Origin: Candidatus Omnitrophota bacterium
GTDB lineage: Bacteria > Omnitrophota > Gorgyraeia > Tantalellales > Tantalellaceae
NCBI GenBank assembly: GCA_049643885.1
Contig: JBARQV010000055.1
Location: 9,052 to 73,051 of the forward strand
Direction: 5' to 3'
Length of the DNA: 64,000 nucleotides
In this document: piece by piece, positions 17,269 through 29,935 of the stretch
How the letters are laid out: each line of letters opens with the position of its first letter
Position numbering within the stretch: the stretch's first letter is position 1
Made by a program: the position numbers and the translations under genes
Notes under the pieces: generated by a model
What the model was told of the DNA's origin: nothing
Seen by the model: the letters and a program-made list of their open reading frames with translations, nothing else
The model's database searches: none

Positions 17269-17910
17269 TTACTCTTCGTGCTTTTTATTCTCTTCCGGCT
17301 TAGTGGTCAGGGTAGTCTCTCTCCTGCACCGCGCGCACACTATCTTAACCCTGTCGGACCTGCCGTAGTCCTTGAGCGCGGAAATAATATTCTCATCAAC
17401 AATACCAAGACTTTTCAGGCGGGATAGATAAAGGGTGGGATTGGAATAAGTCAATTCGCCTATTCTTTCGGATATCCATTTCAGGTGATCCTTGCATGTA
17501 ATAACATCGCCGCATACTTCACAAAGCTGCAGTTCCTTTTCGATTTTTTCGCTAGCTTCTTTTCGGTCAAAAAACGCGAGTTCCCAGTCAGTTGAAAGCT
17601 TGATGCCTTCATTGTCCGCGATGCATGCCGCTTCACACTGCCCGCAGAATATGCATGTATCGGTATGATGATACAATGTCCTTTTCGGATTTTCAGGATC
17701 CGCTGAATCCTCAAAAGAGAGCGCCTCCACCGGGCAGACCTGGACGCACGCCGTGCATCCCACGCATTTCTCGTCATCATATTTCGGCTGGCCCCTGAAG
17801 TTAGGATGAGGCTTGTGCATGACCTTGGGGAATTTGGACGTATATGGCCCTACGATAAGCGCTTTTATCGCTTCTAACAATTCTCTAATTTTTGGCTTCG
17901 GTATTCTCAT
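17269..17910 (-). CDS. 2x[4Fe-4S] ferredoxin subunit (NuoI/MbhN-like) with C-terminal Cys-rich extension
   Basis: The two cluster motifs CVGCTACVQVCP and CIFCGQCEAAC. The start is placed at MRIPKPKIRELL. The ORF-track start at 18033 overlaps mrpG. Confidence 0.7.
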   Translation of the reverse strand: MRIPKPKIRELLEAIKALIVGPYTSKFPKVMHKPHPNFRGQPKYDDEKCVGCTACVQVCPVEALSFEDSADPENPKRTLYHHTDTCIFCGQCEAACIADNEGIKLSTDWELAFFDRKEASEKIEKELQLCEVCGDVITCKDHLKWISERIGELTYSNPTLYLSRLKSLGIVDENIISALKDYGRSDRVKIVCARCRRETTLTTKPEENKKHEE

Positions 17911-17938
17911 TTTTGATTTTTGCTCTTTGATCTTTGAT

Positions 17939-18274
17939 CTATATTTCGCCCTCTTTGTCTTCTTTATACCTGTCGACGACGCTTCCTTCCCAGAGCTTGA
18001 CCCCTGCCCTGTGCGCACCCCTGGCCACGGCATGCGCCGCGACAGGAGCGGTCAGGAGAATGAACAATATACACAATAAAGATTTAAATCCCGCCGATGT
18101 AAAACCGACAATGAGAAACGTTCCGAAAAGTATGCTGCATGTCCCTAAAGTAACACTTTTCGTCGCCGCCTGAAGACGATTATAAACATCGGGGAGCCTC
18201 ACCAGACCGAGACACCCGAAAAAGTCAAACGCCAGTCCAACTACTATGAAAATAAGACCTATCTTCTCAATCAT
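17939..18274 (-). CDS. Mrp antiporter subunit G-like (MnhG/MbhC-like)
   Basis: The LGLVRLPDVYNRLQAATKSVTLG motif characteristic of MrpG/PhaG. Confidence 0.7.
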   Translation of the reverse strand: MIEKIGLIFIVVGLAFDFFGCLGLVRLPDVYNRLQAATKSVTLGTCSILFGTFLIVGFTSAGFKSLLCILFILLTAPVAAHAVARGAHRAGVKLWEGSVVDRYKEDKEGEI

Positions 18275-18635
18275 CGAAACTCTTTCCCTCCAGATATTTT
18301 GAAAGCGCCAGTGTGCTTATGAAACTCTGAAGCGCCCACGCTATCCCTATGTCAATATACCAGGACCTGCGGGTAGTAATGGTCAGCACCGCGCACAGGC
18401 CCACGATCAATATCCCGAGAATATCTATGGCCACGATCCTGTCAGCACCGGTAGGCCCTTTCCATATCCGGTAAAGACACATCAACGCGCCAAGTGTCAA
18501 TATATAAAGCGCCCTTCCGAAGAAACCGACCAGCGGCAGGTCCGGGTAAAACAGGAACGGAAAAGGCTTTATCAGTATCCTCGTGATGATCGCGCCTAAT
18601 ATGATCGCGCCTATGATCCACCTTATCATTTTCAT
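18267..18635 (-). CDS. Mrp antiporter subunit F-like (MnhF/MbhB-like)
   Basis: A small 3-TM protein with the GPTGADRIVAID segment typical of MrpF. Confidence 0.6.
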   Translation of the reverse strand: MKMIRWIIGAIILGAIITRILIKPFPFLFYPDLPLVGFFGRALYILTLGALMCLYRIWKGPTGADRIVAIDILGILIVGLCAVLTITTRRSWYIDIGIAWALQSFISTLALSKYLEGKSFDD

Positions 18636-18651
18636 GATTACATCCTTATTC

Positions 18652-18692
18652 GATCCCGGATTGAGCCCTTCGGGCTCATCCGGGATGACACA
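18652..18692. repeat. Palindromic repeat unit (inverted copy of the 17211-17250 unit)
   Basis: GATCCCGGATTGAGCCCTTCGGGCTCATCCGGGATGACACAT. Confidence 0.65.
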
Positions 18693-19193
18693 TTATTCAA
18701 AAATTTTGGACAGTATTTCCTCGAACCTTTTAATAATTATTTTTGTAGCGGCCTCGGTATCTTTATCTTTTACATCGATCCAGTGGACATACAAAAAACC
18801 GTTGTCCCTGTCCACGTCCACGCTCATCGTCCCCGGCGTAAGAGTTATAGAATTCGCCAGAAAGGTAAGTCCCGTATCAGTCTTCAGTTCCGTCTTCACT
18901 TTGACGATCCCCGGATTTATGGGAAGCTTCGGGTGCAATACGCGATAAGCCACGTCGATATTCGCCTTGAAGCACTCCCACAAAAACACCGGAACATACC
19001 AGAAAATAAAATAAAACCATCGATGGGGATGGCTTAGTTTCAGGGGCTCCTGTATAAAAAAGTCACCCGTTATAAAAGCCACAAAAGCCGCTATAAATAC
19101 ACCGACGACAAGATGCTGCCAGTCAGGCATCCAGTTCAAAAAGCACCATACCACGTAAGCCAATATGAATAATATTATCCTGCTTTTCATCAC
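18693..19193 (-). CDS. Mrp antiporter subunit E-like (MnhE/MbhA-like)
   Basis: A 166-aa membrane protein with the LTPGTMSVDV motif of MnhE. Confidence 0.6.
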   Translation of the reverse strand: MMKSRIILFILAYVVWCFLNWMPDWQHLVVGVFIAAFVAFITGDFFIQEPLKLSHPHRWFYFIFWYVPVFLWECFKANIDVAYRVLHPKLPINPGIVKVKTELKTDTGLTFLANSITLTPGTMSVDVDRDNGFLYVHWIDVKDKDTEAATKIIIKRFEEILSKIFE

Positions 19194-20698
19194 CCGATCC
19201 CCTTAAACACTATCACGGCGTATTTGGTGCCTTCTAAAAGGACGTCCGTAGCGCGCTCCAGAAAAAGCTGGTTCACGCCCGCGAGTAGAAGAACGCCTCC
19301 TACCAGGCAAATAAGCGCGAGCACGCCCATTGAAAGCCTCATAAAAATTGGGACTTCTTTTACCTGCCCGCATCTTTCCTTTAACTTGTCGTAGAAAGCG
19401 TATTTCATCACCTTCATGAAAGAGGCCAAAGTCAATACGCTGGCCAAAACCGCCCAGAAGGCGTACCCATATCTTCCCGCCTGGACAGCCGCGATAATAA
19501 TTATCAACTTGCTCCAGAAACCGTTAAAAGGCGGGATCCCGGCGATCGACATCGACGCTACCAGGCAGGTCGAACCTGTCACAGGCATTTTCTGGGACAA
19601 GCCGCCCATTTTCTGGAGATCACGCGTTCCCGTTGAGTATTCGAGCGCCCCGGAATTCAAAAAGAGGAGCGATTTAAAAATAGAGTGATTGAAAAGATGG
19701 AACAGCCCACCTAGTATCCCGAGCGGCGTTCCCAAGCCGATGCCCAGTATGACATATCCTATCTGGCTTATGGAGTGATACGCGAGAAGACGCTTAAAAT
19801 CCCACTGCCCGATAGCCAGGCACACTCCCACGACCATGGACAAAGCCCCAAGAAACAAAAAGATCTCCAAAACCTTGGGGGTCATACCGAACACGTTAAA
19901 GAAGATCCTGCACAAGGTATAAATACCGAGCGATTTTATTATGACTCCCGAAAGCATGGCCGATATAGGCGCCGGGGCTGAAGGGTGAGCGTCAGGCAGC
20001 CAGGCATGGAACGGGACAAGCGCCGCCTTCAGGCCGAACCCCATGATAAAAAGTACACTTACCATGAGGATAATATTCCCCCCTCCTTTTTGGGCCAGTA
20101 TAGAAGCCATGTCCGCCATGTTCAACGTCGAAGTATAACCGTAAAGAAGGACTATGCCTAAAAGGACAAAAAGAGAGCCGACGGTGCTCATAATGGCGTA
20201 CTTAAAGGCCGCTTCAAGCTCGTGTTTTTCAGTCCCGAAAGCGACCAGCGCGTAACTCGCCACGGACGCTATTTCCAGGAACACAAAAAGATTGAATATA
20301 TCCCCGGTTATAATGACACCGTTCATCCCTGCCAGCATGAGGAGGAACAGGCTATAGAACTTCCATTTGGAGGTATATTTTTTCATGTAATCTATGGAAA
20401 AGACCGAAATACAGAACGCTACCAGATTGACCGTTACCAGCATGAACGAGGTCAGGCCGTCAAGCACCATGGCTATACCGAAAGGAGGTTTCCATGCGCC
20501 GACTCCGTACACAAGAGTTCCGTATTTGTTATATATGAAAATAGCGGCGATCGAAAGCAAAAGCGAACCCAGTGTCGACAGGTTCCCCATAAAATCCGGA
20601 AACCATTTCAGCCGTTTTCCGCCCAGGGTTACAAGAAAAGCACCGGCAAGCGGGATAACCGTAAATAAAGGAATTATATTAGCTGCTTCTACTATCAT
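19190..20698 (-). CDS. Proton-translocating antiporter-like subunit (MrpD/NuoN family)
   Basis: A 502-aa polytopic protein with the NuoL/M/N-family core (WLPDAHPSAPAPISA...). Confidence 0.85.
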   Translation of the reverse strand: MIVEAANIIPLFTVIPLAGAFLVTLGGKRLKWFPDFMGNLSTLGSLLLSIAAIFIYNKYGTLVYGVGAWKPPFGIAMVLDGLTSFMLVTVNLVAFCISVFSIDYMKKYTSKWKFYSLFLLMLAGMNGVIITGDIFNLFVFLEIASVASYALVAFGTEKHELEAAFKYAIMSTVGSLFVLLGIVLLYGYTSTLNMADMASILAQKGGGNIILMVSVLFIMGFGLKAALVPFHAWLPDAHPSAPAPISAMLSGVIIKSLGIYTLCRIFFNVFGMTPKVLEIFLFLGALSMVVGVCLAIGQWDFKRLLAYHSISQIGYVILGIGLGTPLGILGGLFHLFNHSIFKSLLFLNSGALEYSTGTRDLQKMGGLSQKMPVTGSTCLVASMSIAGIPPFNGFWSKLIIIIAAVQAGRYGYAFWAVLASVLTLASFMKVMKYAFYDKLKERCGQVKEVPIFMRLSMGVLALICLVGGVLLLAGVNQLFLERATDVLLEGTKYAVIVFKGIG

Positions 20699-21036
20699 TA
20701 TCCTCGTAGCTCCCGAATTTTAGTAATGTCAAATGTTTGGTATTTCTGGTATATCCTCATGGCAATGGCGGCCAAAAGCGCGGTCGTCGCCAGTCCGATG
20801 ACGATGGCCGTGAGGACCAGCGCCTGGGGAAGCGCGTCGACCATATTCACGATCGTCTGGTCAGGAGCATAGATCGGGGCCCGCCCGCCCTCACGATACG
20901 CGGTCAGGATAAAGAACAGATTTACCGCGTATTCCATGATTATCACACCGATTATGATCTTGATCACGTTGCGCTTCCTCAAAACACAGTAAAGGCCTAT
21001 ACTAAAAAGCACGATACTTAAAAGATAAACAGTCAT
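20698..21036 (-). CDS. MrpC/NuoK-like membrane subunit
   Basis: A 112-aa, 3-TM protein positioned between the MrpD-like and MrpB-like genes. Confidence 0.7.
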   Translation of the reverse strand: MTVYLLSIVLFSIGLYCVLRKRNVIKIIIGVIIMEYAVNLFFILTAYREGGRAPIYAPDQTIVNMVDALPQALVLTAIVIGLATTALLAAIAMRIYQKYQTFDITKIRELRG

Positions 21037-21485
21037 TATTCGTTCTCCTCGAAGATCTTCATAAGTGTCAAAGCTACAAAAATCGCGAAAAGTCCCGCAC
21101 CTACCTTAAGGCTTATCGCCACGTTACAAAGCGGGATGATCCCGGCGCTGAAAAGCTTGAAAGGTTCGCCTTTGCCCACGAAATTCAAAAAGAAATACCC
21201 GCCGGTAAACCCCAAAAGAGCTATGCTAAGAAAGAGCAGCGCGCCCATTCCTTCAAAAAAAGAAGCGACCGGACGCGGAAGCTTGCTCAATGCCACGTCT
21301 TTTCCGTAGGCCAGCATCAAATGGACAAAAGACAGAGCTATTATGACACCTCCCGCAAAACCGCCGCCGGGCGAAACGTGTCCATGCGCCACGATATATA
21401 TCCCGTACAGGAGTATGATCCCCACCGTAAGACGGGTGATGGTCTTGACGATCAGGGACATTCCTTTTTCGTGTTCTCTGCTCAT
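21036..21485 (-). CDS. MrpB-like subunit (MnhB domain)
   Basis: The HGHVSPGGGFAGG signature of MnhB. Confidence 0.7.
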   Translation of the reverse strand: MSREHEKGMSLIVKTITRLTVGIILLYGIYIVAHGHVSPGGGFAGGVIIALSFVHLMLAYGKDVALSKLPRPVASFFEGMGALLFLSIALLGFTGGYFFLNFVGKGEPFKLFSAGIIPLCNVAISLKVGAGLFAIFVALTLMKIFEENE

Positions 21486-22027
21486 CGATCTTCCTCTATC
21501 TTTTCGTCCCCTTTTATCCTTCCTATGCGCCGAACCACGGCAAGCACACCGATAACTGCCGTGAAAAGGATCGTCGCCTCGCCCAGTGTATCAAAAGCCC
21601 TGTAGTCCAGGATGACCGAAGCGACAAGGTTGGCAGCTCCGGACTGCATGAGGCCGTCTTTCAGATAAGTGCTTCCCACTCTCATTATCGGATGACCGAA
21701 CTCCGGCAGATCCTTGAAACACACGTAAGAGATCACCAGAAACGTTACGATAAAGATCACGGCAATAACGGTGTTAAGAAACCACCTGCCGGACGTCGAA
21801 AACGGCAGATCCTTCTTCAAGGTCGCCTGGATCAATATTATGAGTATCAGGATCTCTACGACCAGCTGGGTAATGGCCACGTCCGGGGCCTTGAGCATCA
21901 GAAACGCGATCGACAGTCCCAGCCCGACCGCGCCTACCGCGATGACCGAGGAAAGGAGATCCTTTACCTCTATAGCCACTATCGCGCCTATTATCATAAA
22001 TACTAAAAGCACATGCAGTTCTACCAT
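21482..22027 (-). CDS. MnhB-domain membrane subunit (MrpA C-terminal-like; MbhD/E-like)
   Basis: The NLVASVILDYRAFDTLGE motif. The start is placed at MVELHVLL just after the mrpA-like stop. Confidence 0.6.
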   Translation of the reverse strand: MVELHVLLVFMIIGAIVAIEVKDLLSSVIAVGAVGLGLSIAFLMLKAPDVAITQLVVEILILIILIQATLKKDLPFSTSGRWFLNTVIAVIFIVTFLVISYVCFKDLPEFGHPIMRVGSTYLKDGLMQSGAANLVASVILDYRAFDTLGEATILFTAVIGVLAVVRRIGRIKGDEKIEEDR

Positions 22028-23679
22028 GGTTTCCTCATCAATACATAAAACAGGACGATCATACCGAGCATGCACCAGGCCAGGTATGTGAGAAGAACCC
22101 CGTTATGTATATACCGTAACAACCTGTTAAATCCTAAAGTGATTTTAATGCCGATATCGTATATATCAAAAAACTTTTTCTCCGCCCAATCATATATCCT
22201 TTTTAAACCTCCCACCTTCCTTATGGTCTCGTAAAATTCGACTCCCGAAACTCTCATGTCGGGATGTTCTTCCACAATTTCTCCGCCCACGAATATTTCA
22301 GTGGTCCTTGTCTTCACTGCCGTACCCAAAAGATATATTATAAGACCCACAATTATCGCAGAAATCATCAAAACCGTTGCCAGCCCGGAATCCCATATTC
22401 CCGTGAACGCCGCACCGCCCCCGATACTCGGAAATATGAACATCTTAAGAGGAACGGCATAAGCAAAAATACCGAAAACGATGCACAATACGGCAAGTAC
22501 GGCCGGGGGTATCCACATTGACGGCCCGGTCTCGCCTTTTTTTCGTTCGGCTTCTGTAATTTCCCGGGAAGGCTGCCCGAGAAAAACCGAATGCACCAGT
22601 TTCATAAAACTGGCCAGTGTAAGCGCGCTGCCGAACATGGCCGCTATAAGCCATAGCACCCAGAGCGGGTTGTCCTTGGCCGTATCGATCACGCCCTGGT
22701 ATATCATCCATTTCGAAGCGAAACCGTTCAAGGGCGGTACTCCCGATATAGCCAATGAAGCTATCAGAAAAGAAGCGAAACTTACAGGCATTATCTTCGC
22801 GAACCCCCCCAGCTTTTCCAGGTCCGTAGTCCCGGTCCTTTTTTCAACCGCTCCGCCTGACAAAAACAAGCAGGATTTATAGATGGCGTTATTGAGCATA
22901 TGAAAAAGAGCGCCTGCGATGCCTATCGGGTTGCCCGTGCCGATGCCCAAGACCATATAACCGACCTGGCTTACCGCGTGATACCCAAGTAGTCTCTTTA
23001 AATCATGCTGGACAAGTGCCATCATGACAGCGGCAACTATTGTCACGCTTCCCAGGGCCATCAAAAATGTGTTCATGGCGGCATCCATCTGGAACATGTC
23101 CAGGGTCAACCTGACAAGAAAATAGATCCCCAGCAGTTTGTCGAGAGACGCAGGCAGAAAAGCAGCCACTGGCGTCGGAGCGTCTTCCGCGGTATCGGGC
23201 ACCCAGGTATGAACCGGCATGACCCCGCCCTTCGCGAACGCGCCAAGGGCCAGACACAGGTAAGCCCAGACTGCCGCGCCAGAGTCCAGGGGTATATTGA
23301 TCTTATCCATTTCAAACGCGCCGGACAGCTTCCAGACTAACCCGAGTCCCAAAAGCATAACGGCGTCCGTCCCGCCGATTATTATGAATGTTTTCTTGGC
23401 GGTATACGTTGTGCTTTCTTTCCGGCCGAATCCTATCAAAAGATAAAGAAGCAGTCCCAAAAATCCCCAGAAACCTATGAAAAGTATAAGGTTGTTCGAG
23501 AAAACCGCGCCGAGGGAAGCCGCTATGGTAAGCAATATGTAAAAGAAATACCTGATGAGCCCTTTTCTCCCTCGCATGAATCCTATTGAGTAAATAAGCA
23601 CGAGCAAAGAAAAAAGACAGACAAAGATCCCTACAAAAATGGACAGATGATCGATCCTGAAAAGCTCAGCGTTTGGCAT
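22021..23679 (-). CDS. MrpA/NuoL-like antiporter subunit (MbhH-like)
   Basis: A 552-aa polytopic NuoL-family protein (WVPDTAEDAPTPVAAF). Confidence 0.85.
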   Translation of the reverse strand: MPNAELFRIDHLSIFVGIFVCLFSLLVLIYSIGFMRGRKGLIRYFFYILLTIAASLGAVFSNNLILFIGFWGFLGLLLYLLIGFGRKESTTYTAKKTFIIIGGTDAVMLLGLGLVWKLSGAFEMDKINIPLDSGAAVWAYLCLALGAFAKGGVMPVHTWVPDTAEDAPTPVAAFLPASLDKLLGIYFLVRLTLDMFQMDAAMNTFLMALGSVTIVAAVMMALVQHDLKRLLGYHAVSQVGYMVLGIGTGNPIGIAGALFHMLNNAIYKSCLFLSGGAVEKRTGTTDLEKLGGFAKIMPVSFASFLIASLAISGVPPLNGFASKWMIYQGVIDTAKDNPLWVLWLIAAMFGSALTLASFMKLVHSVFLGQPSREITEAERKKGETGPSMWIPPAVLAVLCIVFGIFAYAVPLKMFIFPSIGGGAAFTGIWDSGLATVLMISAIIVGLIIYLLGTAVKTRTTEIFVGGEIVEEHPDMRVSGVEFYETIRKVGGLKRIYDWAEKKFFDIYDIGIKITLGFNRLLRYIHNGVLLTYLAWCMLGMIVLFYVLMRKPW

Positions 23680-24856
23680 CCCAGTCTTTCCTTATTTTTT
23701 CCGTTTTCTCCTGTGACAGCCTTACCAGATCATGTCCGGTGTACAGCTTTTTCCCCTTTGTATTACGGACAGCCATCCTCTCCGTGCAGCAGTAACACGG
23801 GTCTATCGCCGCGAGGATTATCGTAGCGTCGGATATCGTCTCTCCCTTGACAGTCGCTTTATATGTAGGAAGATTCATGAACGTAGGCGCTCTAACCTTG
23901 TGGCGCACCGGACTGTTCGTCCCGTCACTCCTTACATAATGGAAAGTTTCTCCTCTCGGCGCTTCATGAGTGCCGATGCCCTCCCCGGGAGGTATGTTCT
24001 TGATCTTCGCGTCGATCTCACCTTCCGGTAGATTCAAAAGGCATTCTTTCATTATCTTGTATGACTCGAACATCTCCAGTATTCTTACTACCACTTTATC
24101 AAAAACATCACCATTATGAGTGACTATCATGTCCCATTCCACCTTATCATAAGCCGCGTAAGGTGAATCTTTTCTGACGTCCCGGGCAACTCCGGAAGCC
24201 CGTGAAGTCGGTCCCAGAGCGGAAAAGTTTATCGATTCTTCTTTCGTTAGAATGCCTATTCCCTTTGTCCGGGCGTGAAGCACAGGGTCATCCACTACCG
24301 CTTTTTTCAGCATGTTCAGTGTGGGAATTATGGAATCAATTTTCTTGATCACCACAGGTATGTCTTCCTTCTTTATATCTCTTCTTACCCCTCCCGGCTT
24401 GAACATGGCGTAGTTATTCCTGTTCCCGGAAAGTATTTCCATAACATCCAATATCTCTTCCCTCAATTTCCAGGCCCACATATAGACAGTGTTGTATCCC
24501 AAAAAATGTCCCGCGAGGCCAAGCCACAATAGGTGGGAATGTATCCTTTCTCCTTCACCTATTATGGTCCTTATGTATTTAGCCCTGTCGGGGACTTCCA
24601 TGGGTATGATGTCCTCCACCGCCTGGGCATAAGCAAATGGATGGCTTGTGGAGCATATGCCGCATATTCTTTCGATCACGAATGTCGACTGGTCGAAAGT
24701 CTTCATCTCGGATAATTTCTCAATACCCCTGTGGTTGTACCCGACCTGGACATCGATATCGACGACCCTCTCACCCTCAACAGTAAGAGTGAAAAACTCA
24801 GGTTCTTCCTGAAGCGGGTGGTACGGTCCTATGGGAACTATTGTCTTCGCCATCAA
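23666..24856 (-). CDS. Group-4 [NiFe]-hydrogenase large (catalytic) subunit, NuoD-like
   Basis: The N-terminal L1 motif RICGICSTSH and the C-terminal L2 motif DPCYCCTER, that is, both Ni-Fe-ligating Cys pairs, in a 396-aa protein. Confidence 0.85.
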   Translation of the reverse strand: MMAKTIVPIGPYHPLQEEPEFFTLTVEGERVVDIDVQVGYNHRGIEKLSEMKTFDQSTFVIERICGICSTSHPFAYAQAVEDIIPMEVPDRAKYIRTIIGEGERIHSHLLWLGLAGHFLGYNTVYMWAWKLREEILDVMEILSGNRNNYAMFKPGGVRRDIKKEDIPVVIKKIDSIIPTLNMLKKAVVDDPVLHARTKGIGILTKEESINFSALGPTSRASGVARDVRKDSPYAAYDKVEWDMIVTHNGDVFDKVVVRILEMFESYKIMKECLLNLPEGEIDAKIKNIPPGEGIGTHEAPRGETFHYVRSDGTNSPVRHKVRAPTFMNLPTYKATVKGETISDATIILAAIDPCYCCTERMAVRNTKGKKLYTGHDLVRLSQEKTEKIRKDWDAKR

Positions 24857-25326
24857 ACACCTCTATCCCTTATTGCGCCCTCATCCCACTCCTTATAATC
24901 GCACCTCAAAGGATAGACACCTTCCGGCCATTCGTCAGGAAGAAGGAGTCTTCTCATATCAGGATGACCCTTGAAACTGATCCCCAGCATTTCGTTCATC
25001 TCTCTTTCTATCCAGTTTGCCGCCTCAAAAACAGGAGCAAGTGAATCGATCTCCAATCTATCTTTGGGCAGCTTTACTCTCAAAGATATCTGAAGATTTA
25101 TTTCTTCGATGATAAAATGATAAAGGATCTCCATGTGGAACCTGACATCCACGCCGGTCGCGATATTGAACCTCGCTCCCATATCTTTAAAAAGATAACT
25201 GCCGATCTTGACTATCGATTCAGGTTTTATCTCGATATAGACTCTCTTTTGGGACTTATCGAAAATATCGATAATATCGTCTTTGAATTTGCTTTTAAGA
25301 TTCTTTAAAACTTCATTCCTTGTCAT
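24853..25326 (-). CDS. NuoC-like (30 kDa) hydrogenase subunit
   Basis: ANWIEREMNEMLGISFKGHPDMRRLLL, the NuoC/EchD signature. Confidence 0.8.
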   Translation of the reverse strand: MTRNEVLKNLKSKFKDDIIDIFDKSQKRVYIEIKPESIVKIGSYLFKDMGARFNIATGVDVRFHMEILYHFIIEEINLQISLRVKLPKDRLEIDSLAPVFEAANWIEREMNEMLGISFKGHPDMRRLLLPDEWPEGVYPLRCDYKEWDEGAIRDRGV

Positions 25327-25361
25327 AATTCACTTCTCTGCTTGAGTATCCATCATCGATT

Positions 25362-25444
25362 GGGCGGGTCCTGTCGCTCAGTGCCCTGCGCGCCTCCGCG
25401 CCACTGGCTTGTGCGGTGCTCGGACACTGTCGCGCCACCCGCCC
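25362..25444 (+). repeat. GC-rich 83-nt structured repeat, copy A (GGGCGGGT...ACCCGCCC)
   Basis: It is 97-98% identical to the copies at 44575-44656 (+) and 30116-30198 (-). It has 8-bp terminal inverted repeats and an internal CAGTGTCC/GGACACTG stem. GC is about 70%, against roughly 45-50% for the flanks. Confidence 0.7.
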
Positions 25445-25485: not shown

Positions 25486-25911
25486 TTACTTCTTCCCTCT
25501 AACCTTCTCAATGAGCTTCACTACCCCCGCGATGATAGCTTCCGGCTTCGGGGGGCAGCCGGGAATATAAACGTCTACCGGGATGATCTTATCCAGCGGC
25601 ACGGGACAATTATAACTGTGGATGAACATGCCGCGGGACATGGAACATTCCCCTACAGCCACCACAAGCAAAGGTTTTGGCGCTTGTTCATATAATCTTT
25701 TCAATCTCTCCACGGACTTCCTATTACAAGAACCCGTGATCAGGAGCACATCTGCGTGTTTAATACTTCCGACAAGAAGCATCCCGAACCTCTCAATGTC
25801 GAACCTGGGGGTAAGACAATCGAGTATCTCGATATCGCAGTTATTACAACTACCGGTAGACAGGTGAAACACCCATGGAGACTTCAAAAGTGCTTTTAAT
25901 TTCATACTCAT
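25486..25911 (-). CDS. NuoB-like [NiFe]-hydrogenase small subunit (proximal 4Fe-4S)
   Basis: GSCNNCDIEI and VDVYIPGCPPKPE motifs. Confidence 0.85.
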   Translation of the reverse strand: MSMKLKALLKSPWVFHLSTGSCNNCDIEILDCLTPRFDIERFGMLLVGSIKHADVLLITGSCNRKSVERLKRLYEQAPKPLLVVAVGECSMSRGMFIHSYNCPVPLDKIIPVDVYIPGCPPKPEAIIAGVVKLIEKVRGKK

Positions 25912-25913: not shown

Positions 25914-26837
25914 TTATTTCCCTAATAATGCTAACACGACCGCTAGAGCAGCAAGAACCGTCATGGGGCCCCAGAAAAACCTCACCGCCTGGTCGATCCT
26001 CACCCGCGGGTTTGTATTCCGTATGACTGTTATTACCGCTACCAGTCCTATGTATTTCAGCACGCCGTATAAAAGATGAATACCGTCTACCCTCAAACCG
26101 CCCATGAACAGGATCATCAGGAAAAAAGGCAACGTGAACATGAGCATGTTCTTCATCAACCTGTAAACGGCGAGACCGGAACCTGAATATTCAATAAGCG
26201 CCCCTCCCGATATCTCCGTTTCCGCTTCCGGCATATCAAAAGGAACAAGGGCGAGTTTGGCCTGGGTGCACATAATGGCCACCACAAGGGCTATTACACC
26301 TGAAATGTTTCCCGCCACCACTCCGTTCGAAGCCTGAAAACTCAGGATATCCCCGATCCTTATAGAATATCCTGCTTTAATGACAGGCACTAAAAGCGCC
26401 AGGACAAAAGGAAGCTCGTAACTCAAGACAAGTTTCATCTCCCGCGAAGCACCCAAACTCGCAAAGGGATTGGCGGAGGCGAAACCCCCAATAATGATGC
26501 TTATAGAGGGAATGGTCAATAAATATATCGCGACAATAAGGTCCCCTAAAAATCCCGAGCCTGTATAGATATCATTCATCCAAAGCAAGGTCGACACCAC
26601 CACGACACTCCCGAAACCCAGGACAGGGGCCATCATGAAAGTCGCTTTTGAAGCACCGGCCGGGACAAGCGTCTCTTTTCCCAGGAGCTTGACTATGTCG
26701 ATCAAGGGCTGCAGAAGCGGCGGCCCGACTCGGTACTGCACCCGGGCAGTGACCTTCCTGTCGATCCAACTTGCCGCGAGCCCCATGGCGGCCGTCAGCA
26801 AAAATCCATAAACTAAAAGATATCCAATATAGTTCAC
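25914..26837 (-). CDS. NuoH-like membrane subunit (MbhM/EchB/HycD family)
   Basis: A 307-aa polytopic protein with the NuoH-family pattern. Confidence 0.8.
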   Translation of the reverse strand: MNYIGYLLVYGFLLTAAMGLAASWIDRKVTARVQYRVGPPLLQPLIDIVKLLGKETLVPAGASKATFMMAPVLGFGSVVVVSTLLWMNDIYTGSGFLGDLIVAIYLLTIPSISIIIGGFASANPFASLGASREMKLVLSYELPFVLALLVPVIKAGYSIRIGDILSFQASNGVVAGNISGVIALVVAIMCTQAKLALVPFDMPEAETEISGGALIEYSGSGLAVYRLMKNMLMFTLPFFLMILFMGGLRVDGIHLLYGVLKYIGLVAVITVIRNTNPRVRIDQAVRFFWGPMTVLAALAVVLALLGK

Positions 26838-27421
26838 GCTTTCTCCCTGTCCCAGTGAGTTGAATGGACTATTATGTTATCTCCTGCCAGGAATTCGTTC
26901 TCCCCGAGCTCCTTGTCAGCCTCTCTCAGGCTTAACGCCCCGTAGGGGCAAGTCGTTATGCAAAGCGGTTCTTGCTTCACGTCCCTCCGGTCCAGGCAGA
27001 AATCACAGTTGTGGACCAGGAGCGGAACAAGCTCGGGATAGATCGTCCCGTAAGGGCACGCATGCGAGCATGACCTGCAGCTTATACACCTCATGTTATG
27101 CCGCACGAGAAGAGCATCTTTCTCCTCCTCCTGCTCAAGCGCCTCTACCGGACACGCGGCGACACAGTGCGGATCCTCGCACCTGCGGCAGACAAGCGCG
27201 TAGGTAGCCAGTTCCGCCACGGAAAGGATCCCGTTATTCGCGGTCTGTCGGTGATACAAATAACTGCACTTTGTAACGCATTCTTCGCATTCACCGGAAG
27301 CGCAAACATCTAGATCGATAAAGAGCCTCTTGTCCTTGCCTTTCTTCGGCTCTACGTTCATCTTCCCCTGATGTATCTGTTCCGCGCTCGTATCCATATG
27401 GTTTTTGTCATCCCCGCGCAA
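26834..27421 (-). CDS. CooF/HycB-like multi-cluster 4Fe-4S ferredoxin
   Basis: Four CxxCxxCxxxCP-type motifs in 195 aa. Confidence 0.75.
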   Translation of the reverse strand: MRGDDKNHMDTSAEQIHQGKMNVEPKKGKDKRLFIDLDVCASGECEECVTKCSYLYHRQTANNGILSVAELATYALVCRRCEDPHCVAACPVEALEQEEEKDALLVRHNMRCISCRSCSHACPYGTIYPELVPLLVHNCDFCLDRRDVKQEPLCITTCPYGALSLREADKELGENEFLAGDNIIVHSTHWDREKA

Positions 27422-27432
27422 GCGGGGATCTA

Positions 27433-28260
27433 TTAATCCCAGATCTCGGAAAAATTCTTTATCTTGTCATACGTAAAAACTGGGCCATCCTTGCAGGCGT
27501 AATATGTCCCGATCCTGCAATGACCGCATTTACCTATGCCGCAGGACATGTTTTTTTCCATTGAAAGATAGATGTTGCCTTCTTTGAACCCCAGCTCCAG
27601 AAGTTTCATGGTCGCGAACCTCATCATTATAGGAGGTCCGCAGACGACCGCAATGCCTTTGGCGGAATCCATTTCGATACCGTCCATGATAGTGGTCACT
27701 ACCCCGACATTACCTTTCCACTCTTCGTCGCCGACATCGACCGTGAGCCTGAGATCAAGATCTTCCCTCTCGTGCCACCCGTGGATCTCGCTCCTGTAAA
27801 GCATTTCTTTGGACGCGCGGCACCCGCCTCTGAAAAACAGTTTCTTGAATTTTCCGCTCCTGTTGAAAAATTCATACATCAGGCTCCTCAAAGGCGCGTA
27901 ACCGCACCCGCCCCCGACAACCAGGACTTCCTTGCCTTCAAATTCATCCACCGGGTACCCGGTCCCGAGAGGGCCTCTCACACCGACCTTGTCACCTTTT
28001 TTAAGTTCATGGATCTTATCAGTGACTTTCCCTACCCTCATGACGGTGACTTCCAACACTTCTGTTGATTCAGGGTTTGAAGACGGCGTGAACGGCGCTT
28101 CCCCCACACCGGGAATGGTTATTTCCACAAACTGCCCGGTCTTGAAAGTCATGGGTTCTTTGGGTTTAAACCTTATCGTCTTGATGGTAGGCGTCTCGGT
28201 TATGACGTCAAGAACTTCGGCTTCGATCGGCCTGTATGGATTATTATTTTTCCCCATCAC
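27433..28260 (-). CDS. FAD/NAD(P)H-binding oxidoreductase subunit with C-terminal [2Fe-2S] (PyrK/HydG/AsrB/SudB family)
   Basis: A ferredoxin-reductase-like fold (FKTGQFVEI...GGGCGYAPL) and the C-terminal CGIGKCGHCRIG cluster motif. Confidence 0.75.
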   Translation of the reverse strand: MMGKNNNPYRPIEAEVLDVITETPTIKTIRFKPKEPMTFKTGQFVEITIPGVGEAPFTPSSNPESTEVLEVTVMRVGKVTDKIHELKKGDKVGVRGPLGTGYPVDEFEGKEVLVVGGGCGYAPLRSLMYEFFNRSGKFKKLFFRGGCRASKEMLYRSEIHGWHEREDLDLRLTVDVGDEEWKGNVGVVTTIMDGIEMDSAKGIAVVCGPPIMMRFATMKLLELGFKEGNIYLSMEKNMSCGIGKCGHCRIGTYYACKDGPVFTYDKIKNFSEIWD

Positions 28261-29284
28261 TATCTTTCAGTCTTCTTAGAACTTTCCTTATGTCTATTTT
28301 AGCCGGGCAGGCGGTTATACACCGGCCGCACCCGGTGCAGGCATGAAAATCGGCTACTTTAGGGAAAAAATCGAATTTTTTATCGAACCTGTTCCTGAGC
28401 CGCATCCAGAGTTTCTCCCTGGGGTTCGCACCCCCGGCGACCCGGGCGTAATCTTTTATCATGCACGAATCCCAGATCCTGAGCCGGGTCATCTTATCTT
28501 CGCTTTGCTGGTCATACAAGAGAAAACAATGGCAAGTGGGACAGATGATCGTGCATGCTCCGCATTCCACGCATGTCTTGGCCTCGTCGCTCCAGATATC
28601 GGATTCCCAGTTTCTTTCGATAATATCTTTCCTGAACTTATCATAACTGGGGACATTATTTTCCTTAATATTATTTTCTACTTCCTTCATAACCCGGTTA
28701 CGCTGCTCGTCCCTTTGGCGGATCATATCCGGCTTTGCTTCAATAAAGAGAGACGGGTTCTTGTCTATTAGTTCCTGGCCTCTCTTTGAACCGGTTTCCA
28801 CAACAAAACCCTTTTTGACCGGAGAAAGGCCGAGATCAAAATTTTCCTGGGGATACGGCTGATTTCCTGCCGCGAGACAGTAACACGTGTCTATCGTGCA
28901 GGTGCAATCGGAAGCTATGACCAGATTTTCTTCACGATTTTTAACGTAAAAAGGGTCCACATGATCATGATCCTTAAAAACATGATCCTGGACTTTGAAA
29001 CCCTGTCTCAGGTCGCAGTTCTTGACCCCTACTATCGCAAAAGGCTTGTCCCTGGAGTGGGGGATCTCGGGGCTGAAATCCTCGGCAACGACCTCTCTGG
29101 CCATGGTGAAAAAGGCTTTCAGCGGCTCAAAAGGCCTTACCTCGCCGATCATGATATCATCAGACCAATCATTGAGTTCTTTATAAAACCTTTGGTCGCC
29201 TTTCTTGACCGGGGCAAAGACCCTGTAATCCTTTTTCAGGTTTTCGAGTAAGATCGCGAGTTCATTAATAGCTAAATATTTCAT
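28244..29284 (-). CDS. 4Fe-4S dicluster protein, AsrA/HydB family (sulfhydrogenase beta-like)
   Basis: CVECGACTIICPTCHC and CTGCGRCITACP motifs in a 346-aa protein. It partners with the HydG-like gene. Confidence 0.7.
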   Translation of the reverse strand: MKYLAINELAILLENLKKDYRVFAPVKKGDQRFYKELNDWSDDIMIGEVRPFEPLKAFFTMAREVVAEDFSPEIPHSRDKPFAIVGVKNCDLRQGFKVQDHVFKDHDHVDPFYVKNREENLVIASDCTCTIDTCYCLAAGNQPYPQENFDLGLSPVKKGFVVETGSKRGQELIDKNPSLFIEAKPDMIRQRDEQRNRVMKEVENNIKENNVPSYDKFRKDIIERNWESDIWSDEAKTCVECGACTIICPTCHCFLLYDQQSEDKMTRLRIWDSCMIKDYARVAGGANPREKLWMRLRNRFDKKFDFFPKVADFHACTGCGRCITACPAKIDIRKVLRRLKDSDGEK

Positions 29285-29910
29285 TTCTTTTCCGCCAAAA
29301 AATACGAAAGCGTCTCGAGCTCACGCGAAAGGTCGACATCCTTGACTTTTACATTATCGGGAACATTCAGACTGACCGGGGCGAAATTGAGCAGGCATTC
29401 AATACCGCTGTTCACGAGTTCATTCGCCACTTCCTGGGCTTTATCGGAAGGGACGGCGATAATACCGATACTTATATTTTTTTTCGCTACCGTCTCCTGC
29501 AGGTCGCTCAAAGGCTGTATTATTATCCCGCCCAATTCTTTGCCGATCTTTTTTTCGCTCTCGTCAAAAGCGGCAACGATCTCTAGCCCGTGCTTTTTAA
29601 ATCCTGAATATGAAATGAGCGCTGAACCCAGGTGACCGGCGCCGACAACAGCAACGTTCCAGGTCTTATCCTTCCCCAGTATCTTTTCCAGAGCCTGTTT
29701 CAGTTCCTTCGTGTCATAACCGGAACCGCTCACCCCGAACTGCCCGAAATACCCCAGGTCTTTCCTTACCTGGGCGTCGCTTAGGTTTGTCCTGTCTCCT
29801 AATTCAGCTGATGATATGGTCCGGATGTTCAGCTTGACCAGTTCCGCCAGCTCACGCAAGTAAATGAAAAGACGGGAAATCGTTCCCTCGGGGATTTTTT
29901 TTCCGCTCAT
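29281..29910 (-). CDS. rex: Redox-sensing transcriptional repressor Rex
   Basis: A winged-helix N-terminus (ISSAELGDRTNLSDAQVRKDLGYFGQFG) and a Rossmann motif (VAVVGAGHLG). The start is placed at MSGKKIPEGT; the ORF-track start is an extension. Confidence 0.85.
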   Translation of the reverse strand: MSGKKIPEGTISRLFIYLRELAELVKLNIRTISSAELGDRTNLSDAQVRKDLGYFGQFGVSGSGYDTKELKQALEKILGKDKTWNVAVVGAGHLGSALISYSGFKKHGLEIVAAFDESEKKIGKELGGIIIQPLSDLQETVAKKNISIGIIAVPSDKAQEVANELVNSGIECLLNFAPVSLNVPDNVKVKDVDLSRELETLSYFLAEKK

Positions 29911-29917
29911 ATTTGGA

Positions 29918-29935
29918 TTGTGATAATCTTCACAG
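29918..29935. promoter_or_regulatory. Candidate Rex operator (TTGTGA-N6-TCACAG)
   Basis: A near-consensus Rex box (TTGTGAAnnnnTTCACAA) 8-25 nt upstream of the rex ATG, at the head of the hydrogenase operon. Confidence 0.5.

What the first reader, a model, noticed from the sequence alone, without database searches (positions are those of the whole stretch)
17269..29935. Rex-headed, Mrp-linked group-4 [NiFe]-hydrogenase carrying an NAD(P)H-binding HydB/HydG (AsrA/AsrB)-like plus CooF-like input module
The sequence shows one uninterrupted minus-strand gene string. It runs from rex through an AsrA/HydB-like 2x[4Fe-4S] gene, a PyrK/HydG-like FAD/NAD(P)H plus [2Fe-2S] gene and a CooF-like 4-cluster ferredoxin. 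It continues through NuoH-like, NuoB-like, NuoC-like and [NiFe] large-subunit genes. It then has MrpA, a MnhB-domain gene, MrpB, MrpC, MrpD, MrpE, MrpF and MrpG-like genes, a NuoI-like ferredoxin and a maturation endopeptidase. The large subunit keeps both Ni-ligating Cys pairs (RICGICS and DPCYCC), so it is a real hydrogenase and not an Mbx/Mbs-type paralog. Energy-converting Mbh/Ech-type enzymes are classically ferredoxin-coupled. Here an NAD(P)H-binding module is fused into the operon and the NADH/NAD+ sensor Rex is the first gene, with a near-consensus Rex box at its own start. I therefore infer an ion-gradient-coupled H2:NAD(P)+ oxidoreductase. The Mrp module could drive uphill H2 evolution from NAD(P)H or conserve energy during H2 oxidation. 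This may be an undescribed variant of the Mbh family.
Basis: partly seen in the sequence, partly recalled or inferred. Interest (0 to 1): 0.7.

Follow-up and report, generated by a model that had tools for sequence, protein, structure and literature searches.

The report
Rex-controlled Hun membrane hydrogenase operon
This is a real, tightly packed operon for a membrane-bound nickel-iron hydrogenase with an added NAD(P)H-type input module and a redox-sensing repressor, but the gene cluster was already described from metagenomes as the "Hun" complex, so only its proposed NAD(P)H coupling and Rex control remain open and interesting.

Summary
The gene string exists as described. On the minus strand it runs rex, then AsrA/HydB-like, AsrB/HydG-like, CooF-like, NuoH, NuoB, NuoC, [NiFe] large subunit, eight Mrp-type genes and a NuoI-like gene. 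It then continues with hycI and hypA-F-C-D-E. The window comes from a Candidatus Omnitrophota MAG.

It is not an undescribed variant. The 16 structural genes match, gene for gene, the "hun" operon named by Glass et al. (bioRxiv 10.1101/536078). That work lists the operon in Atribacteria, Omnitrophica, Elusimicrobia and Kosmotoga. Its HunG large subunit is HydDB group 4g with a CGIC/CYCC motif, and the window has RICGICS/DPCYCC. Matheus Carnevali 2019 and Meheust 2020 also noted the asrA-asrB-cooF "oxidoreductase module".

All 57 related loci with enough upstream DNA carry hunABC in the same order.

Two points remain open. HunA and HunB align over their full length with the NADPH-binding beta and gamma subunits of P. 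furiosus sulfhydrogenase I, and the FAD/NAD(P) and [2Fe-2S] motifs are invariant. That favours NAD(P)H over the ferredoxin donor proposed in print. Rex boxes sit at the operon's 5' end in 35 of 59 loci, about 100 times the background density, whether rex is the first or the last gene.

My reading is an ion-coupled, Rex-derepressed NAD(P)H:H+ oxidoreductase. This is untested.

The parts
29956..29984 (-). Sigma-70-like promoter, TTGACT-17-TATATT
   Evidence: It is the best-scoring promoter-like site on the minus strand in 12500-30400, at 10 of 12 matches. The sequence was read.
29919..29934 (.). Rex operator, TGTGAAGATTATCACA. It has 1 mismatch to TGTGAAnnnnTTCACA.
   Evidence: It is the only match in the window with at most 1 mismatch, against 0.12 expected. 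Equivalent boxes are found upstream of the first operon gene in 35 of 59 related loci: 43 boxes in 18.5 kb against 0.40 expected.
29281..29910 (-). rex, the NADH/NAD+-sensing repressor (209 aa). Its stop overlaps the hunA start by 4 nt.
   Evidence: NCBIfam Rex equivalog NF003993 scores 259 bits against a cut-off of 217. Pfam finds Put_DNA-bind_N plus CoA_binding.
28244..29284 (-). hunA: AsrA / sulfhydrogenase-beta-like Fe-S subunit (346 aa)
   Evidence: Pfam Fer4_22. PDB 9nez_B, sulfhydrogenase 1 beta, matches at E = 2.8e-40 over residues 12-340. 15 Cys are invariant in 59 orthologs.
27433..28260 (-). hunB: AsrB / sulfhydrogenase-gamma-like FAD, NAD(P)H and [2Fe-2S] subunit (275 aa)
   Evidence: Pfam FAD_binding_6, NAD_binding_1 and DHODB_Fe-S_bind. 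PDB 9nez_C matches at E = 3.2e-57 over the full length. GGGxGxAP, PFTPSS and the 4 cluster Cys are conserved in 67 orthologs.
26834..27421 (-). hunC: CooF/HycB-type connecting subunit with four [4Fe-4S] clusters. The probable start is ATG 27396 or 27361.
   Evidence: Pfam Fer4_11. 16 Cys are conserved in 69 orthologs. There are weak matches to FdnH, to HycB3/HycB4 of HDCR and to HycB of FHL. Its stop overlaps the hunD start.
25914..26837 (-). hunD: NuoH/MbhM-like membrane subunit
   Evidence: Pfam NADHdh, E = 2.7e-65.
25486..25911 (-). hunE: NuoB-like hydrogenase small subunit
   Evidence: Pfam Oxidored_q6. Four cluster Cys (C22, C25, C89, C119) are invariant in 77 orthologs.
25361..25444 (-). 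85-nt GC-rich hairpin repeat inserted between hunE and hunF. It is one of 3 copies in the window.
   Evidence: blastn finds copies at 30116-30199 and 44574-44657 with 96% identity, aligned. The RNA fold is -66.9 kcal/mol with z = -2.5. It is absent from the 80 related loci.
24853..25326 (-). hunF: NuoC-like subunit
   Evidence: Pfam Complex1_30kDa.
23666..24853 (-). hunG: [NiFe] large subunit (395 aa). L1 is RICGICS and L2 is DPCYCC. A C-terminal tail follows, available for HycI cleavage.
   Evidence: Pfam NiFeSe_Hases plus Complex1_49kDa. The best PDB hit is MbhL, 6cfw_L, at 1.6e-90. It is 100% identical to an NCBI Candidatus Omnitrophota MAG protein. C65, C68, C354 and C357 are invariant and C356 is 99% conserved in 81 sequences.
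22021..23679 (-). hunH: MrpA/NuoL-like antiporter-type subunit (552 aa)
   Evidence: Pfam Proton_antipo_M. PDB hits are MbhH, MrpA and MbsH'.
21482..22075 (-). hunI: MbhD plus MbhE domains. The probable start is ATG 22027.
   Evidence: Pfam PF13244 and PF20501.
21036..21485 (-). hunJ: MnhB/MrpB-like
   Evidence: Pfam MnhB.
20698..21036 (-). hunK: MrpC/NuoK-like
   Evidence: Pfam Oxidored_q2.
19190..20698 (-). hunL: MrpD/MbhH-like antiporter-type subunit (502 aa)
   Evidence: Pfam Proton_antipo_M. PDB MrpD 7qru_D matches at 2.5e-81 and MbhH at 1.4e-80.
18693..19193 (-). hunM: MrpE-like
   Evidence: Pfam MNHE, E = 1.2e-49.
18267..18635 (-). hunN: MrpF-like
   Evidence: Pfam MrpF_PhaF.
17939..18274 (-). 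hunO: MrpG-like
   Evidence: Pfam PhaG_MnhG_YufB.
17269..17910 (-). hunP: NuoI/HycF-like 2x[4Fe-4S] subunit with a Cys4 C-terminal extension
   Evidence: NCBIfam FHL iron-sulfur subunit and NuoI families. PDB hits are HycF 7z0s_F and MbhN 6cfw_N. 8 cluster Cys plus 4 extra Cys are invariant in 59 orthologs.
16746..17204 (-). hycI-type maturation endopeptidase
   Evidence: Pfam HycI. It follows hunP in 55 related loci.
12944..16753 (-). hypA (16511-16753), short hypF (15334-16392), hypC (15084-15362), hypD (14071-15081), hypE (12944-14002)
   Evidence: Pfam HypA, HypF_C plus HypF_C_2, HupF_HypC, HypD, and AIRS plus AIRS_C.

Best explanation
The locus is a Rex-controlled hun operon of a Candidatus Omnitrophota bacterium. 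It encodes the 16-subunit Hun complex.

**Composition (shown by sequence)**
- The core is an Mbh/Mbs-like, Mrp-linked group-4 [NiFe]-hydrogenase: HunD, HunE, HunF, HunG and HunP, plus the membrane subunits HunH to HunO.
- The peripheral arm is extended by HunC, a CooF/HycB-type subunit with four clusters.
- HunC is followed by HunA and HunB, which are homologs of the beta and gamma (diaphorase) subunits of NADPH-dependent sulfhydrogenase I.
- Rex operators are conserved at the 5' end of the operon.

**Mechanism (inferred)**
- Electrons pass between NAD(P)H on the FAD of HunB and the NiFe site. The path runs through the HunB [2Fe-2S] cluster, the HunA clusters, the four HunC clusters, the two HunP clusters and the proximal HunE cluster.
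- NAD(P)H to H2 is uphill except at very low H2. I therefore expect the membrane arm, with its two antiporter-like subunits, to let ion influx drive H2 evolution. It would act as a redox relief valve.
- The valve would be derepressed by Rex when NADH/NAD+ rises.
- The reaction should be reversible: H2-driven NAD(P)+ reduction with ion export at high H2.
- Together with Rnf this would amount to a chemiosmotic equivalent of electron confurcation.
For: **Identity with Hun**
- Gene order and content match the description in Glass et al..
- The HunG signature CGIC/CYCC is present and invariant.
- 57 of 57 related loci with enough upstream DNA have hunA-B-C directly upstream of hunD, with median gaps of 0-30 nt.

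**NAD(P)H module**
- HunB aligns over its full length with SHI gamma, 9nez_C, at 3.2e-57. HunA aligns with SHI beta, 9nez_B, at 2.8e-40.
- The nucleotide-binding GGGxGxAP motif, the flavin motif and the four [2Fe-2S] Cys are conserved in 67 orthologs.

**Wiring**
- HunC keeps 16 Cys. It resembles the HycB/CooF adaptors that dock soluble dehydrogenases onto group-4 hydrogenases.
- In the rearranged locus L051 and the Mrp-less locus L036, hunABC stays with the peripheral-arm genes.

**Rex**
- The Rex protein scores above the curated cut-offs.
- The operator lies between the promoter and the ATG.
- 35 of 59 loci have boxes within 300 nt upstream of the first gene, in both the rex-first and the rex-last architecture. 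That is 43 boxes against 0.40 expected.
- rex is linked to hun in 36 loci.

**Physiology**
[quoted passage not shown] The first three are pyridine-nucleotide-linked types by established knowledge of those groups.
- The 4g carriers also encode Rnf.
Against: - No biochemical data exist for any Hun complex.
- The only published functional proposal has ferredoxin donating to HunABC. All characterised group-4 hydrogenases use ferredoxin, formate or CO.
- HunP could still accept ferredoxin directly, as MbhN does.
- NAD(P)H to H2 cannot itself power ion export, so the direction of coupling is conjecture.
- Rex also regulates ferredoxin-dependent hydrogenases in other bacteria (my knowledge of the Rex literature, not checked here). 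Rex control therefore does not prove that NADH is the substrate.
- Nucleotide specificity is unresolved. Position 148 is always K or R and no acidic NADH determinant is present, which hints at NADPH, whereas Rex senses NADH.
- 24 of 59 loci show no box at a threshold of 2 mismatches or fewer.
Confidence: 0.6

Rival explanations
1. This is a ferredoxin-driven Hun complex, as published. HunABC, HunP, or both take electrons from reduced ferredoxin. The complex evolves H2 and exports H+/Na+ like P. furiosus MBH. The NAD-binding fold of HunB would be vestigial or regulatory.
For: Glass et al. propose this. Omnitrophota papers assume it for group 4g. The core is closest to MbhL/MbhH/MbhN of the ferredoxin-dependent MBH. 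Fd to H2 is exergonic and can drive the two pump modules.
Against: A flavoprotein with an invariant NAD(P)-binding motif and a [2Fe-2S] cluster is kept in all 67 orthologs. It is not needed to oxidise ferredoxin. Its solved homolog, SHI gamma, is the NADPH site. The cited analogy to AsrAB does not argue for ferredoxin, because AsrB is itself an FAD/NAD-binding protein (domains).
Confidence: 0.2
2. This is a dual-acceptor enzyme. Reduced ferredoxin enters at HunP or HunC. Electrons leave either to protons at the NiFe site or to NAD(P)+ at HunB. Hun would then be both an MBH-like hydrogenase and an Rnf-like ion-pumping Fd:NAD(P)+ oxidoreductase. Rex would set its level according to NADH load.
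For: Both an MbhN-like HunP and a diaphorase module are present. The membrane arm has two antiporter-like subunits, as in MBS, and suits an exergonic donor. Rex control fits any enzyme that shifts the NADH balance.
Against: The 4g-carrying Omnitrophota already encode Rnf, which would make this function redundant. Nothing in the sequence shows a ferredoxin site once HunC caps HunP. No data exist.
Confidence: 0.15
3. hunA and hunB are a separate soluble enzyme that merely sits next to an ordinary Mbh operon. Candidates are an anaerobic sulfite reductase remnant, an Nfn-like remnant or a group-3b sulfhydrogenase remnant.
For: HunA and HunB hit the AsrA/AsrB and sulfhydrogenase beta/gamma models.
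Against: All those hits are below the curated cut-offs. There is no AsrC, no NfnB/GltD-like gene and no group-3 large or small subunit in the operon. Genes overlap or abut: rex/hunA by 4 nt, hunA/hunB by 17 nt and hunC/hunD by 4 nt. The order is invariant in 57 of 57 loci across divergent lineages.
Confidence: 0.03

Closest known systems
Hun supercomplex / hun operon (Glass et al., bioRxiv 10.1101/536078; metagenomic description only)
   Same: [quoted passage not shown] It has the same HunG CGIC/CYCC motif. Omnitrophica are among the listed carriers.
   Different: The paper does not mention rex or Rex operators, and it proposes ferredoxin as the donor. Here rex is the first gene, the operator is conserved across loci, and homology points to NAD(P)H. 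An 85-nt repeat is inserted between hunE and hunF in this genome only.
'Enigmatic' Mrp-Mbh-type group-4 hydrogenase of Saganbacteria RX5A (Matheus Carnevali 2019) and the 'Mbh-Mrp-oxidoreductase type' of Elusimicrobia (Meheust 2020)
   Same: asrA-like, asrB-like and cooF-like genes lie next to hydrogenase and Mrp subunits. The closest relatives were stated to be in Zixibacteria and Omnitrophica.
   Different: The Saganbacteria region also carries an FdhH-like molybdopterin subunit. None is present in the window. No gap large enough for one exists between hunB and hunC in the 66 related loci measured, where the largest gap is 453 nt.
P. furiosus membrane-bound hydrogenase MBH (PDB 6cfw; HydDB group 4d)
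   Same: It is the best solved relative of the large subunit (1.6e-90). MbhH, MbhN, MbhD/E and the Mrp-type subunits are all present.
   Different: MBH has 14 subunits, one antiporter-like subunit, a different gene order, a ferredoxin donor and no HunABC. Hun has a second antiporter-like subunit, HunH, as MBS does.
E. coli formate hydrogenlyase (PDB 7z0s) and CooF-linked CO-hydrogenases
   Same: The design principle is shared. A soluble dehydrogenase is docked onto the NuoI-like subunit of a group-4 hydrogenase through a HycB/CooF-type polyferredoxin. HycE, HycF and HycB are detectable homologs.
   Different: The docked dehydrogenase here is an FAD/NAD(P)H flavoprotein pair rather than FdhF or CooS. 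The membrane arm is Mrp-type.
P. furiosus soluble sulfhydrogenase I (group 3b; PDB 9nez)
   Same: HunA and HunB are full-length homologs of its beta and gamma subunits, which carry the Fe-S chain, the FAD and the NADP(H) site.
   Different: The catalytic alpha and delta subunits are absent. The hydrogenase core is group 4 and membrane-bound.

Membership tests
Hun complex (hun operon, Glass et al.) | [quoted passage not shown] | tested here: met
   Pfam and NCBIfam assignments match the order given. The same order is seen in 80 related loci. The letter-to-gene mapping is inferred from the paper's text, because the figure is not held.
Hun complex (hun operon, Glass et al.) | HunG metal-site motifs CGIC (L1) and CYCC (L2) | tested here: met
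   RICGICS and DPCYCC are present in the window. C65, C68, C354 and C357 are invariant and C356 is 99% conserved in 81 sequences.
Hun complex (hun operon, Glass et al.) | HydDB assignment to group 4g, on a branch distant from other 4g sequences | not testable with these tools
   HydDB is not available here. The assignment is taken for Omnitrophota and Hun large subunits.
Group 4 energy-converting [NiFe]-hydrogenase | Large subunit with both Ni-ligating Cys pairs, a NuoB-like small subunit with one [4Fe-4S] cluster, and a NuoH-like membrane anchor | tested here: met
   The best PDB relatives are MbhL and HycE.
Group 4 energy-converting [NiFe]-hydrogenase | Maturation machinery: a C-terminal extension, its endopeptidase and Hyp proteins | tested here: met
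   A tail of 36 residues follows DPCYCCTER. hycI, hypA, hypF, hypC, hypD and hypE lie directly downstream. hypB was not found in the window.
Group 4 energy-converting [NiFe]-hydrogenase | H2 turnover coupled to ion translocation | not testable with these tools
   This needs vesicle or proteoliposome assays.
Mbx/Mbs (hydrogenase-like complexes without a NiFe site) | Large-subunit homolog that lacks the Ni-binding Cys pairs | tested here: not met
   All four ligand Cys are present and invariant. MbsL is a much weaker match, 2e-48, than MbhL, 1.6e-90. The locus is therefore not Mbx/Mbs, although it shares the second antiporter-like subunit with them.
P. furiosus-type MBH (group 4d) | 14-subunit mbhA-N composition with a single antiporter-like subunit and no extra electron-input subunits | tested here: not met
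   Two antiporter-like subunits and three extra subunits, HunABC, are present, and the gene order differs.
Formate hydrogenlyase / group 4a-4b | A molybdopterin formate dehydrogenase subunit in the cluster | tested here: not met
   No molybdopterin protein is found in 12944-32149. No gap for one exists between hunB and hunC in the 66 related loci measured.
Group 3b sulfhydrogenase | A four-subunit alpha-beta-gamma-delta enzyme with group-3 large and small subunits | tested here: not met
   Only beta and gamma homologs are present, and they score below the equivalog cut-offs (171 against 690 and 195 against 650). The large subunit is of the NuoD/Mbh type.
Anaerobic sulfite reductase AsrABC | The sirohaem subunit AsrC together with AsrA and AsrB | tested here: not met
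   There is no AsrC. TIGR02912 gives only a 27.8-bit ferredoxin-domain hit on HunP, against a cut-off of 324. The AsrA and AsrB hits are below their cut-offs.
Rex regulon member | A Rex protein, plus a TTGTGAAnnnnTTCACAA-type operator in the promoter region | tested here: met
   Rex scores above the equivalog cut-offs. The operator has 1 mismatch and lies between the -10 element and the ATG. It is positionally conserved in 35 of 59 loci.
Rex regulon member | NADH-sensitive binding of Rex and derepression in vivo | not testable with these tools
   This needs EMSA or footprinting with and without NADH, plus expression data.

The most novel reading that the evidence does not exclude
Hun would be the first energy-converting (group 4) hydrogenase that works on pyridine nucleotides. 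It would be a reversible NAD(P)H:H+ oxidoreductase in which ion influx through a two-pump Mrp arm pays for uphill H2 evolution from NAD(P)H, and ion export conserves energy during H2 oxidation. With Rnf it would form a chemiosmotic substitute for flavin-based electron confurcation. It would be switched on by Rex when NADH accumulates. This would explain how the widespread Omnitrophota, Atribacterota, Elusimicrobiota and Fermentibacterota lineages that carry it dispose of NADH as H2.
Probability: 0.4. Interest if true: 0.8.

Novelty: new member of a known kind. Interest (0 to 1): 0.45.

Why it matters
The Hun-type hydrogenase is widespread in uncultivated anaerobes. In the protein search the best 120 large-subunit clusters listed were all at least 83% identical. 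The genome scan kept 80 species-level loci.

Metabolic reconstructions routinely book it as a ferredoxin-dependent 'group 4g' enzyme. If its input module really uses NAD(P)H, those energy budgets are wrong. A new bioenergetic coupling mode, ion-gradient-driven NAD(P)H-dependent H2 evolution or its reverse, would then exist.

The conserved Rex operators give a cheap, testable handle. The Kosmotoga isolates reported to carry the operon give a cultivable system for the test.

Tried and rejected
- **Sulfite reductase, Nfn remnant or group-3b remnant.** Rejected. There is no AsrC, NfnB or group-3 catalytic subunit, and hunABC is invariantly co-linear with the core.
- **Formate-linked variant, as in Saganbacteria.** Rejected for this clade. 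No molybdopterin gene is present in the window, and there is no room for one in the 66 loci measured.
- **T. onnurineus NADP-dependent Fdh3 as a precedent for a HydBG-type module.** Rejected. Its NAD(P) subunit is modelled on NfnI (GltD-like), not HydG-like.
- **Kosmotoga olearia transcriptome paper.** It gave no locus-level information on this hydrogenase.
- **Papers on Atribacterota isolates.** They did not describe Hun in the cultured strains. A. laminatus lacks NiFe hydrogenases.
- **A paper on the sulfhydrogenase I structure (9nez).** None was found in the library.
- **Polymorphism of the hunE-hunF repeat.** Contig L082 appeared to lack the insertion. In fact the contig simply begins inside the repeat.
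- **Rfam.** It gave no family for the repeat or the leader, only a tRNA at 53278-53350.
- **Nucleotide specificity.** NADH versus NADPH could not be decided from sequence.
- **More distant large-subunit relatives.** I did not determine where on the tree hunABC is lost. The one genome scan returned only relatives at least 81% identical.

Full report
**1. What is in the sequence**

ORF listing and profile searches confirm a single minus-strand gene string. In order it contains:
- rex (29281-29910)
- an AsrA/HydB-like Fe-S protein (28244-29284)
- an AsrB/HydG-like protein with FAD, NAD and [2Fe-2S] domains (27433-28260)
- a CooF/HydN-like 16-Cys protein (26834-27421)
- NuoH-like (25914-26837), NuoB-like (25486-25911) and NuoC-like (24853-25326) genes
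- a [NiFe] large subunit with RICGICS and DPCYCC (23666-24856)
- an MrpA/NuoL-like subunit, an MbhD+MbhE protein, MnhB, MrpC, MrpD, MrpE, MrpF and MrpG (17939-23679)
- a NuoI/HycF-like protein (17269-17910)

Several points go beyond the stated range. hycI (16746-17204) comes next, then hypA, a short hypF, hypC, hypD and hypE, down to 12944.

Neighbouring genes overlap or abut. rex and hunA overlap by 4 nt, hunA and hunB by 17 nt, and hunC and hunD by 4 nt. The exception is a 159-nt gap between the NuoB and NuoC genes.

The Rex box TGTGAAGATTATCACA lies at 29919-29934, 8 nt before the rex ATG. It sits just downstream of the best promoter-like site of the region, TTGACT-17-TATATT. It is the only match in 64 kb with at most 1 mismatch, against 0.12 expected.

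**2. Origin and distribution**

The large subunit is 100% identical to a protein of an NCBI "Candidatus Omnitrophota bacterium" MAG, GCA_049644745.1. The best 120 protein clusters listed were all at least 83% identical.

A scan of one genome per species kept 80 loci with large subunits 81-90% identical. Most are Omnitrophota. Others are bins labelled Elusimicrobiota, Fermentibacteria/Aegiribacteria, Atribacterota, Hydrogenedentota and Spirochaetota, among others.

tblastn of all window proteins against these loci shows the same genes in the same order and on the same strand. All 57 loci with at least 3.6 kb upstream of the NuoB gene contain the HydB-like, HydG-like and CooF-like genes. Median intergenic distances are 0-30 nt.

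The three accessory genes are as conserved as the Mrp subunits, with median identities of 64%, 72% and 73%. They are an integral and constant part of this hydrogenase, not a neighbouring unit.

**3. It has been described before**
- Glass et al. (bioRxiv 10.1101/536078) named exactly this 16-gene cluster hun. HunAB are AsrAB-like and HunC is CooF-like. HunEFGP form the NiFe module, HunDHILK are called 'P-module-like', and HunIJKLMNO are Mrp-like. The authors report it in Atribacteria, Omnitrophica, Elusimicrobia, Bacteroidetes and Firmicutes MAGs and in Kosmotoga isolates. HunG was classified by HydDB as group 4g but lies distant from other 4g sequences and has a distinctive CGIC/CYCC motif. 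The window has it, and it is conserved in 81 sequences.
- Matheus Carnevali et al. 2019 described an 'enigmatic' Mrp-linked group-4 hydrogenase in Saganbacteria. It has cooF, asrA and asrB, and in that case also an FdhH-like gene. Its closest relatives were in Zixibacteria and Omnitrophica.
- Meheust et al. called the arrangement 'Mbh-Mrp-oxidoreductase type' and stated that the function of the oxidoreductase is unknown.
- Omnitrophota surveys list a 'group 4g, Mrp-linked' hydrogenase as a standard trait.

The claim of an undescribed variant therefore fails. None of these works includes biochemistry. In the passages I read or term-searched there was no mention of Rex for this operon: the term is absent from the texts searched, and section 8 of the Glass preprint does not mention it. 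Glass et al. propose ferredoxin, not NAD(P)H, as the donor to HunABC.

**4. What the input module is**

The PDB now holds P. furiosus sulfhydrogenase I (9nez). HunA matches its beta subunit over residues 12-340 at E = 2.8e-40. HunB matches its gamma subunit over residues 2-267 at E = 3.2e-57.

In 67 HunB orthologs three features are essentially invariant:
- the nucleotide-binding GGGxGxAP motif
- the flavin-site PFTPSS motif
- the four [2Fe-2S] Cys

HunA keeps 15 invariant Cys. HunC keeps 16, enough for four clusters. HunE keeps four. HunP keeps eight, plus four extra invariant Cys.

HunC resembles the HycB/CooF/FdnH adaptor proteins. These dock FdhF or CooS onto group-4 hydrogenases (established knowledge; FHL structure 7z0s).

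The sequence therefore shows a continuous cofactor inventory from an FAD/NAD(P) site to the NiFe centre. That the subunits form one chain is inferred from homology and co-linearity.

Nucleotide specificity cannot be read from the sequence. Position 148 is always K or R and aligns with an Arg of the NADPH-dependent SHI gamma. No acidic NADH determinant is present.

**5. Rex**

The Rex protein scores above the curated equivalog cut-offs. I scanned all 80 loci for TGTGAAnnnnTTCACA with at most 2 mismatches.
- 35 of 59 evaluable loci have at least one box within 300 nt upstream of the first operon gene.
- That is 43 boxes in 18.5 kb, against 0.40 expected from the density elsewhere in the same loci, which is 22 boxes in 1.03 Mb.

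Two architectures exist.
- In 27 loci rex is the first gene. Boxes were found in 19 of these. They lie 17-95 nt before rex, mostly 17-68 nt, and are often paired 21 nt apart.
- In 9 loci a more divergent rex (43-47% identity) lies downstream, after hycI or, in L040, directly after hunP. In these a box, usually TGTGATTTTATTCACA, sits mostly 43-78 nt before hunA.

The operator stays at the operon's 5' end wherever rex itself is placed. That is good comparative evidence that Rex controls hun. As far as the searched library shows, it has not been reported.

**6. Most likely mechanism**

*Shown.* The composition, the conserved cofactor ligands, the co-linearity of the genes and the conserved operators.

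*Inferred.*
- NAD(P)H is the soluble redox partner.
- Electrons run from the HunB FAD and [2Fe-2S] through HunA, HunC, HunP and HunE to the NiFe site.
- The membrane arm has two antiporter-like subunits, HunH and HunL. This resembles MBS rather than MBH. It would couple the reaction to ion movement.

By standard redox potentials NAD(P)H sits at -320 mV and H+/H2 at -414 mV. H2 evolution from NAD(P)H is therefore uphill except at very low H2 and cannot pump ions outward. The coherent reading is that ion influx drives H2 evolution, making Hun a relief valve that Rex derepresses when NADH/NAD+ is high. The reverse reaction, H2 to NAD(P)+ with ion export, would run at high H2.

[quoted passage not shown] The first three are pyridine-nucleotide-linked types by established knowledge of those groups. 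The 4g carriers also encode Rnf. This fits Hun plus Rnf acting as a chemiosmotic counterpart of confurcation. That last step is speculation.

Rivals are the published ferredoxin-driven model, a dual-acceptor model (Fd to H+ or to NAD(P)+), and an independent soluble HunAB(C) enzyme. The last is practically excluded by synteny and by the absence of any catalytic partner.

**7. Verdict**

The locus is real and ordinary for its clade. It is another member of the already named, but biochemically uncharacterised, Hun family. The functional idea remains open. It is better grounded in homology than the published ferredoxin proposal, and conserved Rex operators now support it.

**8. Side observations**
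- An 85-nt GC-rich hairpin repeat has three copies in the window. One lies inside the operon and one just upstream of the rex promoter.
- The hypF is short, with Kae1-like domains only.
- An amino-acid permease fused to a PTS EIIA domain lies upstream of rex and is syntenic there in four related loci.
- One contig, L036, carries an Mrp-less version of the cluster, and one locus, L051, is reordered.
- About ten loci have a PhoU-like ORF between hunG and hunH.

Noticed in passing
window 25361-25444, 30116-30199, 44574-44657: An 85-nt GC-rich repeat with terminal inverted repeats (GGGCGGGT...ACCCGCCC) is present in three copies at 96% identity. One copy fills the only long intergenic gap of the operon, between the NuoB-like and NuoC-like genes. 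Another lies in the opposite orientation just upstream of the rex promoter. It is absent from all 80 related loci and has no Rfam family. A public contig (L082) breaks inside it. It looks like a REP/MITE-type element. Its effect on operon transcription is unknown.
   Followed up: partly
window 15334-16392: The hypF is short, at 352 aa. It has only the C-terminal Kae1-like domains and lacks the acylphosphatase, zinc-finger and YrdC domains. The same short form follows hycI in 23 related loci. No hypB was seen in the window.
   Followed up: no
window 17269-17910 (HunP): The NuoI/HycF-like subunit carries four additional invariant Cys (C130, C133, C192, C195) in a C-terminal extension, beyond the eight cluster ligands. 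This may be a zinc or additional Fe-S site. MbhN, at 139 aa, is too short to carry such an extension.
   Followed up: partly
L036 1-7124; L051 6667-19397: L036, a Spirochaetota-labelled MAG contig, has hunA-G followed directly by hunP and hycI, with no Mrp-type genes at all. L051 has the order hunABC-E-F-G-P-D followed by the Mrp genes. In both, hunABC stays with the peripheral-arm genes.
   Followed up: partly
L009 11116-11784 and about 10 other loci (L005, L010, L014, L016, L025, L028, L033, L059): An extra ORF of about 200 aa is inserted between the large-subunit gene and hunH. From reading the sequence it looks PhoU-like. It is absent from the window.
   Followed up: no
window 30302-32149: An amino-acid permease fused to a C-terminal PTS EIIA-2 domain lies directly upstream of the rex promoter region. 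The same gene is syntenic upstream of rex in L009, L014, L016 and L024.
   Followed up: no
loci L001-L080: The large subunit (81-90%) and NuoB-like subunit (77-95%) are far more conserved than the other subunits (HunA 49-76%, Mrp subunits down to about 45%). This holds across MAGs labelled as different phyla. It suggests very strong constraint, horizontal transfer, or mislabelled bins.
   Followed up: no
window 1861-8920: A nitrogen-assimilation cluster lies downstream of the hyp genes. It comprises glutamate dehydrogenase (1861-3306), a CTP-synthase-like ORF that lacks the first ~140 positions of the N-terminal domain profile (4386-5573), a GAF-ANTAR regulator (6018-6722) and a type III glutamine synthetase (6776-8920).
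   Followed up: no
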